This document shows positions 27,124-27,628 of a stretch of 64,000 bases of DNA, in pieces. How positions within the stretch are numbered: position 1 is the stretch's first letter; each line of letters opens with the position of its first letter. The position numbers were made by a program, and so were the translations under genes. Below the pieces are notes generated by a model. The model was not told the DNA's origin, made no database searches, and was given only the letters and a program-made list of their open reading frames with translations. Source of the DNA: Escherichia coli O157:H7 (GTDB taxonomy: Bacteria > Pseudomonadota > Gammaproteobacteria > Enterobacterales > Enterobacteriaceae); NCBI RefSeq assembly GCF_013167455.1, contig NZ_CP038328.1, one strand, 5' to 3'.

Positions 27124-27148
27124 TTCGGGCATTTTTTACCCATAAAAA
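27124..27148 (+). terminator. Intrinsic terminator (plus strand)
   Basis: Hairpin gcccgaacccattcgggc plus T-run. Confidence 0.5.
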
Positions 27149-27154
27149 AGCCCC

Positions 27155-27178
27155 TCCGGAGAGGGGCATGTTTGCATG
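27155..27178 (-). terminator. Intrinsic terminator (minus strand) downstream of the tRNA-like element
   Basis: Hairpin gcccctccggagaggggc followed on the minus strand by T6. Confidence 0.5.
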
Positions 27179-27406
27179 CACATTCTTTTTCTTGCATGGT
27201 GCCGGGTGCCTCCCGGTGAATTCAGTATCAGCACCTGAATCCGCGATTATCACATATACCTGGTTGCTGATTGCCCCTCCGCACAGGGGGATTCACCATG
27301 CCAGTTTCTTTTAACAAACTCCCCGCAAACCAGACAACAGTCAACCGCCTGAATTGTGAGACATTTAAAAAAAAGGCCCGCAAAAGCGAGCCAGGGAAAA
27401 TAAGTG

Positions 27407-27482
27407 TGGCGCGTTGTACTGGATTCGAACCAGCGACCTGGCGATTATGCGTCGCTCGCTCTCACCACTGAGCTAAAGGGCC
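27407..27482 (-). pseudogene. Degenerate tRNA-Ile(CAU)-like element (ileZ-like remnant)
   Basis: 76 nt with intact D-arm (GCTCAGTGGTGAGAGC), CAT anticodon and T-arm (GGTTCGAATCC), but G at position 33, a mismatched anticodon-stem pair and a 3' acceptor strand (ACAACGC) that cannot pair with the 5' strand (GGCCCTT). Confidence 0.45.
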
Positions 27483-27521
27483 GGGAGCAGAATAATAACG
27501 GTCCGTAATTAATTCCGCAAT

Positions 27522-27544
27522 AAAAAACCCGCTCAATGGCGGGT
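27522..27544 (-). terminator. Intrinsic terminator just downstream of Q (tR'-like)
   Basis: Hairpin acccgctcaatggcgggt followed on the minus strand by T6; about 85 nt after the Q stop. Confidence 0.5.
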
Positions 27545-27628
27545 TCTGGTAAAGTTCATGCGCTTGGTTCGCCTCGCGATACAGCTTTGCGAAGCGTACC
27601 GGAATTGAAGCAGTTTATGCGTAAAAAA

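What the first reader, a model, noticed from the sequence alone, without database searches (positions are those of the whole stretch)
27124..27548. stx-position locus holds only a degenerate ileZ-like tRNA remnant flanked by stacked terminators
Downstream of the Q-like gene there is a tR'-like terminator, then a 76-nt tRNA-Ile(CAU)-like element with good D and T arms but G33 and a non-pairing acceptor stem, then two back-to-back terminators, then nanS-p. In Stx phages this slot carries ileZ-argN-argO and stxAB. Here the toxin genes and arg tRNAs are absent and the tRNA looks decayed, suggesting an stx-less relative or a remnant of cargo loss.
Basis: partly seen in the sequence, partly recalled or inferred. 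Interest (0 to 1): 0.55.

Follow-up and report, generated by a model that had tools for sequence, protein, structure and literature searches.

The report
Fused ileZ–argO pseudo-tRNA, empty stx slot
In a toxin-less relative of Shiga-toxin phages, one 174-base deletion fused two neighbouring phage tRNA genes into a dead hybrid, and the "stacked terminators" beside it are the ends of two already known small regulatory RNA genes, so the locus is real but largely ordinary.

Summary
They lie between a Q-like antiterminator gene (27629-28171) and a nanS-p esterase gene (24982-26928).

- **The tRNA remnant:** the 76-nt element (27482→27407) did not decay by scattered mutation. It is a clean chimera of ileZ positions 1 to about 49-56 joined to the 3' end of argO. 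The crossover lies in a shared heptamer, CTGGTTC, in the T arm. Relative to intact ileZ-argN-argO loci, 174 bp are deleted, including all of argN. The only other change is U33→G.
- **Probably non-functional:** only 2 of 7 acceptor pairs form. The Rfam tRNA score is 37 bits and local only, against 72.5 and 70.1 for the intact parents. ARAGORN finds nothing. RefSeq nevertheless annotates it as tRNA-Met.
- **Distribution:** the same allele, always with G33, occurs in 161 of 5,426 complete E. coli genomes. It occurs in no deposited phage genome. No intact ileZ carries G33.
- **The terminators:** the two "back-to-back terminators" are the convergent 3' ends of STnc100 (27330→27138, minus strand) and the anti-GcvB sRNA AgvB (27076-27137, plus strand). 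This arrangement was published in 2014.
- **The stx slot:** the stx insertion point (27363-27366) is empty and has no stx remnant. The same empty junction occurs in 845 genomes.

Verdict: a stx-less relative, with no evidence of toxin loss. Interest is low to moderate.

The parts
27629..28171 (-). Q-like late antiterminator gene (DUF1133 type), the same type as Sakai Sp10 ECs_1958
   Evidence: Pfam DUF1133 2e-103 plus Phage_antitermQ 2.6e-5. PHROG 753 'anti-termination protein Q-like' 1.5e-76. PGAP CDS in the identical strain MB9-1. 83.8% nt identity to the Sakai Sp10 region.
27517..27545 (-). tR'-like intrinsic terminator hairpin (AACCCGC-CATTGA-GCGGGTT followed by a U-run), about 85-110 nt after the Q stop codon
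   Evidence: Inverted repeat I11. 22/25 identical to 933W's first hairpin after qut. Calling it tR' is an inference from position. The mapped tR' of Stx phages lies at +258, which is a different hairpin (PMC7547250).
27492..27520 (-). pT-like tRNA promoter: -35 TTGCGG (27520-27515), 17-nt spacer, -10 TATTAT (27497-27492), 9 nt before tRNA position +1
   Evidence: Aligns with the annotated 'pT; putative tRNA promoter' of 933W, with an identical -10. Identical to the Sakai Sp10 spacer upstream of intact ileZ4. A primary TSS driving the tRNAs was seen in Sp5 (PMC7547250). Activity at this locus is inferred.
27407..27482 (-). Chimeric ileZ'-'argO pseudo-tRNA, 76 nt. The ileZ-derived part runs 27482→~27434 and the argO-derived part ~27426→27407. 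The crossover heptamer CTGGTTC is at 27433-27427 and G33 at 27450.
   Evidence: Breakpoint scan: 3 mismatches for the hybrid model, against 21 for all-ileZ and 45 for all-argO. Rfam tRNA 37.3 bits, local 7-64, against 72.5 and 70.1 for the intact parents. ARAGORN finds none. Fold z-score -0.97 against -4.03 for intact ileZ.
27367..27392 (-). Native argO terminator (GGCTCGC-TTTT-GCGGGCC followed by T8)
   Evidence: Terminator scan. Identical in Nil3. Annotated in 933W as a terminator upstream of stx.
27363..27366 (-). Empty moron slot. This is the point where stx2AB (1,332 bp) sits in 933W and a tciA/terB-like gene sits in Sakai Sp10.
   Evidence: BLAST break points: window 27366 = 933W 1912 and window 27363 = 933W 3245. 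Sequences read. Sp10: window 27366 = L027 1498, with homology resuming at window 27319 = L027 2238.
27138..27330 (-). STnc100-family sRNA gene (same family as EcOnc27 of Sp5; related to PasD), with its own terminator at 27150-27167
   Evidence: Rfam RF02076, 149.9 bits, model positions 1-206. Terminator scan. The 933W homologue scores 207.7 bits and lies 75 nt after stxB2. EcOnc27 is 235/247 nt and Hfq-dependent (PMC4104026 supplement).
27076..27137 (+). AgvB (anti-GcvB sponge sRNA), convergent with STnc100, terminator at 27112-27131
   Evidence: Rfam RF02702, 96.5 bits, every base equal to the consensus. Terminator scan. Function and antisense orientation as in Tree et al. 2014 (PMC4104026).
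27030..27051 (-). A further late-strand terminator-like hairpin between AgvB and nanS-p
   Evidence: Terminator scan. Function not tested.
24982..26928 (-). nanS-p-type sialate O-acetylesterase gene, the first late gene after the slot
   Evidence: Pfam DUF1737 + SASA + DUF6645. 88.6% nt identity to 933W L0105.

Best explanation
The interval is the promoter-proximal 'moron slot' of the late operon of a stx-negative, Sp10-like lambdoid prophage of E. coli O157:H7.

Gene order in the late-transcription direction (minus strand):
1. Q-like antiterminator gene.
2. tR'-like terminator.
3. pT promoter.
4. Chimeric tRNA gene.
5. argO terminator.
6. Empty cargo slot.
7. STnc100 sRNA gene with its terminator, facing the convergent AgvB sRNA gene on the other strand.
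8. One more terminator-like hairpin.
9. nanS-p and the lysis genes.

Origin of the chimera. An ancestor carried the usual tandem ileZ-argN-argO genes. A single deletion of 174 bp took place between the near-identical T arms of ileZ and argO (GGTC[G/A]CTGGTTC[A/G]AATCCAG). The crossover fell in the 7 identical bases CTGGTTC. This joined the 5' two-thirds of ileZ to the 3' end of argO and removed argN.

Consequence. The two acceptor strands now come from different tRNAs and cannot pair. The product therefore cannot be expected to be processed, charged or used in translation (inferred). A later U33→G change in the anticodon loop fits relaxed constraint (inferred). The allele then spread among STEC prophages by the usual mosaic recombination.

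The hairpins. The stacked hairpins are not a special device around the remnant. They are the native ends of the tRNA operon and of two sRNA genes. In a lysogen they would confine pT and sRNA transcription. Q-modified polymerase would be expected to read through them to express nanS-p and the lysis genes (inferred from lambdoid and Stx-phage biology).
For: **Chimera**
- The explicit breakpoint scan gives 3 mismatches in 106 nt for 'ileZ left + argO right'. Two of them lie in the upstream flank and one is U33G.
- All-ileZ gives 21 mismatches and all-argO gives 45.
- The minimum holds for a switch after tRNA positions 49-56, which is the shared CTGGTTC. The deletion is 174 bp relative to Nil3 (sequences).

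**Loss of function**
- 2 of 7 acceptor pairs form (read).
- Rfam tRNA scores 37.3 bits, local only, positions 7-64. The intact genes score 72.5 (ileZ), 70.1 (argO) and 50.4 (argN), all full length.
- ARAGORN finds 0 tRNAs in the window and 3 in each of Nil3 and PhiR49_2.
- The fold z-score is -0.97, against -4.03 for intact ileZ.

**Single origin and spread**
- The junction plus G33 is 100% identical in 161 of 5,426 complete genomes (185 places). Serotypes include O157:H7, O111, O121, O103 and O145.
- It is also in 22 IMG/VR contigs, all with G33.
- No intact ileZ among 7,475 places carries G33.
- The allele lies behind several different upstream backbones.

**Slot**
- The stx2AB block of 933W maps between window positions 27366 and 27363.
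- Sakai Sp10 has the same Q type and spacer, but intact ileZ4 and argO4 and a tciA/terB-like moron in that slot.
- The empty junction occurs in 845 genomes.

**sRNAs**
- Rfam matches.
- Convergent sRNAs at this site and the function of AgvB are published (PMC4104026).
Against: - No expression, processing or aminoacylation data exist for the hybrid, so non-function is inferred from structure.
- PGAP (tRNAscan-SE) annotates it as a 71-nt tRNA-Met without a pseudogene flag. The Rfam tRNA model is above its gathering score.
- One substitution (G33) is thin evidence for relaxed selection.
- The location of PR' for this Q type was not established. Calling the first hairpin tR' therefore rests on position and on similarity to a 933W hairpin that is not the experimentally mapped tR'.
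- The mechanism of the deletion (RecA-dependent, slippage or other) cannot be read from the sequence.
Confidence: 0.88

Rival explanations
1. One reading: an ileZ copy that decayed through accumulated point mutations after the prophage lost its cargo (stxAB and both arg tRNAs).
For: - The element has G33 and an unpaired acceptor stem.
- stx and argN are absent.
- Sakai Sp10 shows that argN can decay by other routes.
Against: - The 3' acceptor strand, discriminator, CCA, trailer and terminator match argO exactly. The ileZ-derived part differs from intact ileZ at one base only. Random decay would not recreate another gene's 3' end.
- There is no stx remnant.
- The empty junction is identical to that of Nil3 and occurs in 845 genomes.
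- A past stx cassette removed by homologous replacement with an empty-slot allele cannot be formally excluded. This accounts for most of the residual probability.
Confidence: 0.08
2. The element is a functional, if unusual, tRNA (tRNA-Met or tRNA-Ile2), as annotated in RefSeq.
For: - PGAP calls it tRNA-Met in every hybrid-carrying genome listed.
- The Rfam tRNA score is 37.3 against a gathering score of 29.
- The pT promoter, the encoded CCA and the terminator are retained.
- It is 100% conserved across 161 genomes.
Against: - Only 2 of 7 acceptor pairs form. The best alternative fold sequesters the CCA end and is no better than shuffled sequence (z = -0.97).
- G33 replaces the universally conserved U33 (established tRNA knowledge).
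- The covariance match is local and leaves out the acceptor stem. The score is half that of the parents.
- ARAGORN rejects it.
- The perfect conservation is explained by one recent origin: G33 is linked to the junction and absent from all 7,475 intact copies.
Confidence: 0.03
3. The junction is a scar of site-specific recombination, left by an integrase that targets tRNA T arms, and not of recombination between tandem genes.
For: The crossover lies in a 7-nt identity in the T arm. That is the size and place typical of tyrosine-integrase overlap regions in tRNA genes (general knowledge, not tested).
Against: - Both parents are adjacent, co-oriented genes in relatives. The missing DNA is exactly the 174 bp between the equivalent positions.
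- No integrase gene or att-like repeat lies next to the locus in the ORF list or the repeat scan.
- CTGGTTC is the only long identical stretch the two genes share around that position, so any homology-guided deletion would land there.
Confidence: 0.03
4. An assembly artefact: collapse of similar tandem tRNA genes.
For: Tandem, partly similar repeats can be collapsed by assemblers.
Against: The identical junction, always with G33, occurs in 161 complete genomes from many laboratories and in 22 independent IMG/VR contigs. The shared identity is only 7 nt, far below read length.
Confidence: 0.01

Closest known systems
ileZ-argN-argO tRNA operon of Stx and other lambdoid phages (933W, AF125520; Nil3; PhiR49_2)
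   Same: - Same position between Q/tR' and the moron slot.
- Same pT promoter region (-10 identical).
- Positions 1-49 equal ileZ except for U33G.
- The 3' end, CCA, trailer and terminator equal argO.
   Different: - 174 bp are missing.
- argN is gone.
- ileZ and argO are fused in the T arm into one 76-nt gene without an acceptor helix.
- Half the covariance score of the parents, and no ARAGORN call.
Convergent sRNA pair at the PR' moron site of EHEC prophages (AgvB1/EcOnc01a in Sp10; AsxR with EcOnc27 in Sp5; Tree et al. 2014, PMC4104026)
   Same: - An STnc100/EcOnc27-family sRNA on the late strand, facing a short anti-sRNA on the other strand, immediately upstream of nanS-p.
- The AgvB copy is identical to the Rfam consensus.
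   Different: Nothing essential differs in the pair itself. The STnc100 copy is the shorter Nil3-like variant (149.9 bits against 207.7 in 933W). The slot upstream of the pair is empty.
Prophage Sp10 of E. coli O157:H7 Sakai
   Same: - Same DUF1133-type Q.
- Identical Q-tRNA spacer, including the hairpin and pT.
- Same AgvB/nanS-p end of the interval.
   Different: Sp10 keeps intact ileZ4 and argO4 with a decayed argN between them. It carries a tciA/terB-like moron in the slot. The argO-derived part of the hybrid resembles the Nil3/933W argO type, not argO4.
STnc100/PasD sRNA family (Rfam RF02076; Zhu, Shabalina & Storz 2026 preprint, 10.64898/2026.05.13.724894)
   Same: Full-length covariance match, next to a sialate esterase gene and a Q gene, as that survey reports for the family.
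   Different: No function has been shown for this family. A proposed pairing with stxB (PMC12370729) cannot apply in cis here because stx is absent.
Deletions by unequal recombination between tandem tRNA genes (for example the classical tyrT-tyrV case in E. coli; recalled from memory, not checked here)
   Same: A deletion between direct repeats formed by neighbouring tRNA genes.
   Different: In that case the partners are the same isoacceptor and the product is a working gene. Here the partners decode different amino acids and share only the T arm, so the product is a non-pairing chimera.

Membership tests
Functional tRNA (tRNA-Ile2, ileZ/ileX type) | Seven-base-pair acceptor helix formed by the 5' and 3' ends | tested here: not met
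   GGCCCUU against ACAACGC gives only the 1-72 and 7-66 pairs. The MFE fold uses an out-of-register helix that buries the CCA end.
Functional tRNA (tRNA-Ile2, ileZ/ileX type) | U at position 33 of the anticodon loop | tested here: not met
   G at 27450. All 7,475 intact ileZ copies differ from the G33 query at one base.
Functional tRNA (tRNA-Ile2, ileZ/ileX type) | D arm, anticodon arm with CAU, and T arm | tested here: met
   The Rfam alignment over model positions 7-64 has posterior probability 1.00.
Functional tRNA (tRNA-Ile2, ileZ/ileX type) | Full-length covariance-model match comparable with genuine genes | tested here: not met
   37.3 bits, local. The intact genes score 72.5, 70.1 and 50.4 over positions 1-71. 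ARAGORN finds none. PGAP still calls it tRNA-Met.
Functional tRNA (tRNA-Ile2, ileZ/ileX type) | Processing, lysidine modification and aminoacylation | not testable with these tools
   Needs tRNA-seq, acid-gel northern and RNase P/TilS/IleRS assays.
STnc100 (Rfam RF02076) | Covariance match above the gathering score over the whole model, ending in an intrinsic terminator | tested here: met
   149.9 bits against 47, positions 1-206. Terminator at 27167-27150.
AgvB anti-sRNA (Rfam RF02702; Tree et al. 2014) | Covariance match, about 60 nt, C/A-rich 5' region, conserved 3' terminator, antisense to the late operon next to nanS-p | tested here: met
   96.5 bits against 56, identical to the consensus. 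On the plus strand, while the late genes are on the minus strand. 5' region is CGAUAACAACACAACAAU. Terminator at 27112-27131. Orientation matches AsxR in 933W.
AgvB anti-sRNA (Rfam RF02702; Tree et al. 2014) | Binds Hfq and sequesters GcvB | not testable with these tools
   Shown for the Sakai copies in PMC4104026. Inferred here from sequence identity to the family consensus.
Stx-converting phage late-region locus | stxA and stxB between the tRNA terminator and STnc100 | tested here: not met
   The slot is empty at 27363-27366. There are no blastn or tblastn hits to the stx2 cassette in the 64 kb.
Stx-converting phage late-region locus | Q, terminator, pT, tRNA genes, terminator, STnc100, anti-sRNA and nanS-p in this order | tested here: met
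   Colinear with 933W apart from the two deletions.
Lambdoid tR' terminator | Intrinsic terminator that stops the PR' transcript in the lysogen and is overridden by Q | tested here: inconclusive
   A hairpin plus U-run is present. PR' was not located for this Q type. The only promoter-like hit (27694-27665) lies inside Q. The similar 933W hairpin is not the mapped tR'.

The most novel reading that the evidence does not exclude
The hybrid may still be transcribed from the retained pT promoter and stopped at the argO terminator, giving a tRNA-shaped RNA of about 110 nt. Such an RNA could not be charged. It might have been kept because it does something else, for example acting as a decoy for tRNA-binding enzymes or anticodon nucleases, or as a sponge-type regulator like its neighbour AgvB. 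Its perfect conservation in 161 genomes and several backbones would then reflect selection and not youth.
Probability: 0.05. Interest if true: 0.55.

Novelty: new variant of a known kind. Interest (0 to 1): 0.25.

Why it matters
- **Annotation.** At least 161 complete RefSeq E. coli genomes (185 places) list this chimera as a working tRNA-Met. It should be flagged as a pseudogene. tRNA counts and codon-supply estimates for STEC prophages are inflated by it.
- **How phage tRNA clusters are lost.** This example shows one homology-guided deletion between T arms, not slow decay. The linked G33 makes the allele a convenient marker for tracing mosaic exchange among STEC prophages.
- **Context for the loss.** stxA2 uses AUA, AGA and AGG at 72 per 1,000 codons. 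The late genes of this prophage use them at 11-39 per 1,000. This fits the loss being tolerated where no toxin gene is carried, although that link is only an inference.
- **What stays the same.** The picture of the stx slot and its convergent sRNAs is already published and does not change.

Tried and rejected
- **MAFFT three-way alignment.** It placed the deletion gap arbitrarily inside the D arm. I replaced it with an explicit breakpoint scan.
- **Literature searches.** Searches for 'ileZ', 'argN' and 'argO' returned nothing relevant, only word-start noise and unrelated papers. I found no prior description of the hybrid, but the library covers open-access papers only.
- **Intact ileZ with G33.** None found, so the idea that the deletion occurred in an ileZ variant that already carried G33 has no support.
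- **Hybrid in deposited phage genomes and plasmids.** Only the argO half matched.
- **stx and Sp10-moron remnants in the window.** None found.
- **Is the post-Q hairpin the experimentally defined tR' of Stx phages?** Its stem matches 933W's first post-qut hairpin, but Term-seq places tR' at +258, which is the second terminator. I left the tR' label as positional.
- **Weak Rfam matches in the interval.** Trp_leader, Phe_leader, OmrA-B, RsmY and others were all far below their gathering scores and lie on terminator hairpins. I treated them as chance.
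Full report
**Orientation and observation.** The late genes of this prophage run on the minus strand. Reading that strand, the interval starts after a 180-aa Q-like protein (27629-28171). That protein matches Pfam DUF1133 at 2e-103, has a weak Phage_antitermQ match, and matches PHROG 753 'anti-termination protein Q-like'. The interval ends at a 648-aa protein (24982-26928) with DUF1737, SASA esterase and DUF6645 domains. Its gene is 88.6% identical in DNA to the nanS-p-type gene L0105 of phage 933W. The interval is 100% identical to E. 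coli O157:H7 strains MB9-1 and SS TX 313-1.

- a hairpin with a U-run after Q (arms 27526-27532 and 27539-27545);
- a 76-nt tRNA-like element at 27482→27407 with a CAU anticodon, sound D and T arms, G at position 33 and acceptor strands that do not pair;
- two adjacent hairpins at 27150-27167 and 27112-27131.

Terminator-like sites are enriched, with 6 found against 1.4 ± 1.4 in shuffles.

**What the tRNA-like element is.** Its 3' acceptor strand, ACAACGC, is the complement of GCGTTGT, which is the 5' end of argO in intact loci. I compared the element with the intact ileZ-argN-argO cluster of phage Nil3, which ARAGORN and Rfam both call as three tRNAs. For every possible switch point, I counted mismatches of 'ileZ on the left, argO on the right'.
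- The minimum is 3 mismatches in 106 nt. Two lie in the upstream flank and one is U33→G at 27450.
- All-ileZ gives 21 mismatches and all-argO gives 45.
- The minimum holds for a switch anywhere after tRNA positions 49-56. That stretch is the heptamer CTGGTTC, which the two T arms share.
- The window lacks exactly 174 bp relative to Nil3.

So the element is ileZ(1 to ~49-56) fused to argO(~57 to CCA). It is followed by the native argO trailer and terminator (27375-27392). The hybrid T stem even carries a G49·U65 pair, with G from ileZ and U from argO. This was one deletion event plus one substitution, not gradual decay.

**Is it a working tRNA?** Probably not, although this rests on structure alone.
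- Only pairs 1-72 and 7-66 of the acceptor helix can form.
- The minimum-energy fold uses an out-of-register helix that buries the CCA end. It is no better than shuffled sequence (z = -0.97), whereas intact ileZ gives z = -4.03.
- The Rfam tRNA model matches only locally, at positions 7-64 and 37.3 bits. The intact genes match over the full length at 72.5 (ileZ), 70.1 (argO) and 50.4 (argN) bits.
- ARAGORN reports no tRNA in the whole window.
- U33 is invariant in working tRNAs (established knowledge). Here it is G.

Against this, PGAP annotates a 71-nt 'tRNA-Met' at 27407-27477 with no pseudogene flag. It does so in every hybrid-carrying RefSeq genome I saw. It calls intact ileZ 'tRNA-Ile'.

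**Distribution and order of events.**
- A 71-nt probe spanning G33 and the junction finds 185 places in 161 of 5,426 complete E. coli genomes, all at 100% identity. Hosts include O157:H7 (TW14359 among them), O111 (11128), O121, O103:H2 and O145:H28.
- The exact junction also occurs in 22 IMG/VR contigs, all with G33.
- A constructed probe, 'ileZ with G33 but its own 3' end', finds 7,475 intact ileZ places in 3,052 genomes. None reaches 100% and the best is 87/88. G33 therefore exists only on the hybrid.
- The simplest reading is one origin, with U33→G arising at or after the deletion.
- Upstream homology to the window begins at -39, -62, -143 or -159, or continues through Q, depending on the contig. 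The allele has therefore been moved between prophage backbones by recombination.
- No record among 50,697 deposited phage genomes or 72,556 plasmids carries the junction.
- O157:H7 genomes hold many intact copies. Strain TR01, for example, has 10 intact ileZ places and 2 hybrid places. Any one copy is therefore redundant.

**The rest of the interval.** The locus does not hold 'only' the remnant. Rfam gives two full-length matches:
- STnc100 at 27330→27138 on the late strand (149.9 bits, gathering score 47);
- AgvB at 27076-27137 on the opposite strand (96.5 bits, gathering score 56, identical to the consensus at every base).

This arrangement is published. Tree et al. 2014 (PMC4104026) described convergent sRNA genes at the moron site downstream of PR' in Sp5, Sp10 and other Sakai prophages. 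They mapped AgvB1 (EcOnc01a) to Sp10. They showed that AgvB antagonises GcvB and aids growth in bovine rectal mucus. They also detected the Sp5 partner, EcOnc27, as Hfq-dependent species of 235 and 247 nt. In 933W I find the same pair: a full STnc100 (207.7 bits) 75 nt after stxB2, and AsxR antisense next to it. A 2026 preprint relates STnc100 to the PasD sRNAs and notes the association with Q and sialate esterase genes.

A fourth late-strand terminator-like hairpin (27051-27030) and a perfect 13-bp inverted repeat (26971-26983 and 27005-27017) lie in the nanS-p leader.

**The stx position.** Alignment with 933W breaks at window 27366 (933W locus position 1912) and resumes at window 27363 (933W locus position 3245). 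stx2AB with its short flanks is therefore a 1,332-bp block sitting exactly between the argO terminator and the STnc100 leader. In the window this point is empty.
- Nil3 has the identical empty junction.
- Sakai Sp10 has the same Q type and an identical Q-tRNA spacer. It carries a tciA/terB-like gene in the slot. It keeps ileZ4 and argO4 with a decayed argN between them.
- The empty junction occurs at 1,025 places in 845 of 5,426 genomes, including avian and commensal strains.
- No stx2 DNA or protein similarity exists anywhere in the window.

The prophage is therefore a stx-less relative with a common empty-slot arrangement. Nothing indicates that it once carried the toxin. Past replacement of a filled slot by an empty allele cannot be excluded from sequence alone.

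**Terminator and promoter upstream of the hybrid.** The hairpin after Q shares its stem with 933W's first post-qut hairpin, at 22 of 25 identical bases. However, Term-seq places the tR' of Stx phages 258 nt downstream of PR' (PMC7547250). That corresponds to 933W's second annotated terminator. I did not locate PR' for this DUF1133-type Q. The only consensus-like promoter (27694-27665) lies inside the Q gene. 'tR'-like' is therefore a positional label.

Directly after the U-run comes TTGCGG-17-TATTAT (27520-27492), 9 nt before tRNA position +1. This aligns with 933W's annotated pT promoter, with an identical -10, and is identical to the Sp10 sequence upstream of intact ileZ4. A primary start site driving the tRNAs was seen in Sp5. 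The hybrid is thus probably still transcribed and terminated at the argO terminator. This is inferred, not shown.

**How it most likely works.**
- Shown: the chimeric structure, the 174-bp deletion, the crossover heptamer, the G33 linkage, the sRNA family memberships, the empty slot, and the distribution.
- Inferred:
  - The deletion arose by recombination or slippage between the near-identical T arms of tandem genes.
  - The product is not usable in translation.
  - G33 reflects relaxed constraint.
  - In the lysogen the four late-strand terminators confine pT and sRNA transcription.
  - Q-modified polymerase reads through those terminators to nanS-p and the lysis genes, as established for lambdoid and Stx phages.
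- Codon context: stxA2 uses AUA, AGA and AGG at 72 per 1,000 codons, against 11-39 per 1,000 in this prophage's late genes. This fits, but does not prove, lower demand for these tRNAs where no toxin gene is present.

**Verdict.** It is wrong about how the tRNA died, about the locus being otherwise empty, and about the meaning of the hairpins. The locus architecture is already known. The fused ileZ-argO allele appears not to have been described in the papers I could search and is widely mis-annotated. It is a minor variant of a known kind. Interest: 0.25.

Noticed in passing
window 42069-42247 (-), 46557-46674 (-), 50052-50147 (+), 55133-55249 (+): Rfam gathering-level matches to RalA (the antitoxin RNA of the Rac prophage), FnrS, McaS and an ALIL frameshift pseudoknot (IS element). 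The prophage therefore abuts Rac-remnant and core chromosome sequence.
   Followed up: no
window 36755-36805, 37032-37108, 37133-37220 (+) and 29767-29942 (-): DicF, IsrK, C4 antisense RNA and a sok antitoxin next to a hokD-type ORF are all inside the same prophage (the hokD annotation is).
   Followed up: no
window 26971-26983 / 27005-27017 and 27030-27051 (-): A perfect 13-bp inverted repeat with a 21-nt loop lies in the nanS-p leader. A further late-strand terminator-like hairpin overlaps the region where AgvB's -35 would lie. Possible control elements for nanS-p or AgvB.
   Followed up: partly
L027 (Sakai Sp10) about 1290-1380: Between intact ileZ4 and argO4, the argN copy of Sakai Sp10 keeps its ends but has a replaced anticodon arm, and ARAGORN does not call it. 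This is a second, independent route of decay of the same tRNA cluster.
   Followed up: partly
L027 (Sakai Sp10) 1499-2237; L026 (933W) 1913-3244: The same few-base slot after the argO terminator holds three states in close relatives: stx2AB in 933W, a tciA/terB-like gene in Sp10, and nothing in the window and Nil3. It behaves as a sharply defined moron insertion point.
   Followed up: yes
L001 6164-6234 and 6330-6473 (= window 27407-27477 and about 27168-27311): RefSeq/PGAP annotates the chimera as 'tRNA-Met'. It also annotates a partial 'hypothetical protein' pseudogene on the strand opposite STnc100. Neither STnc100 nor AgvB is annotated.
   Followed up: partly
window 24380-24980 (-): The stretch between nanS-p and the holin holds small DUF1378 and DUF826 ORFs. 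According to the 2026 Pas sRNA preprint, PasA/PasC-type sRNAs sit between the esterase and the holin in related prophages. I did not check this here.
   Followed up: no
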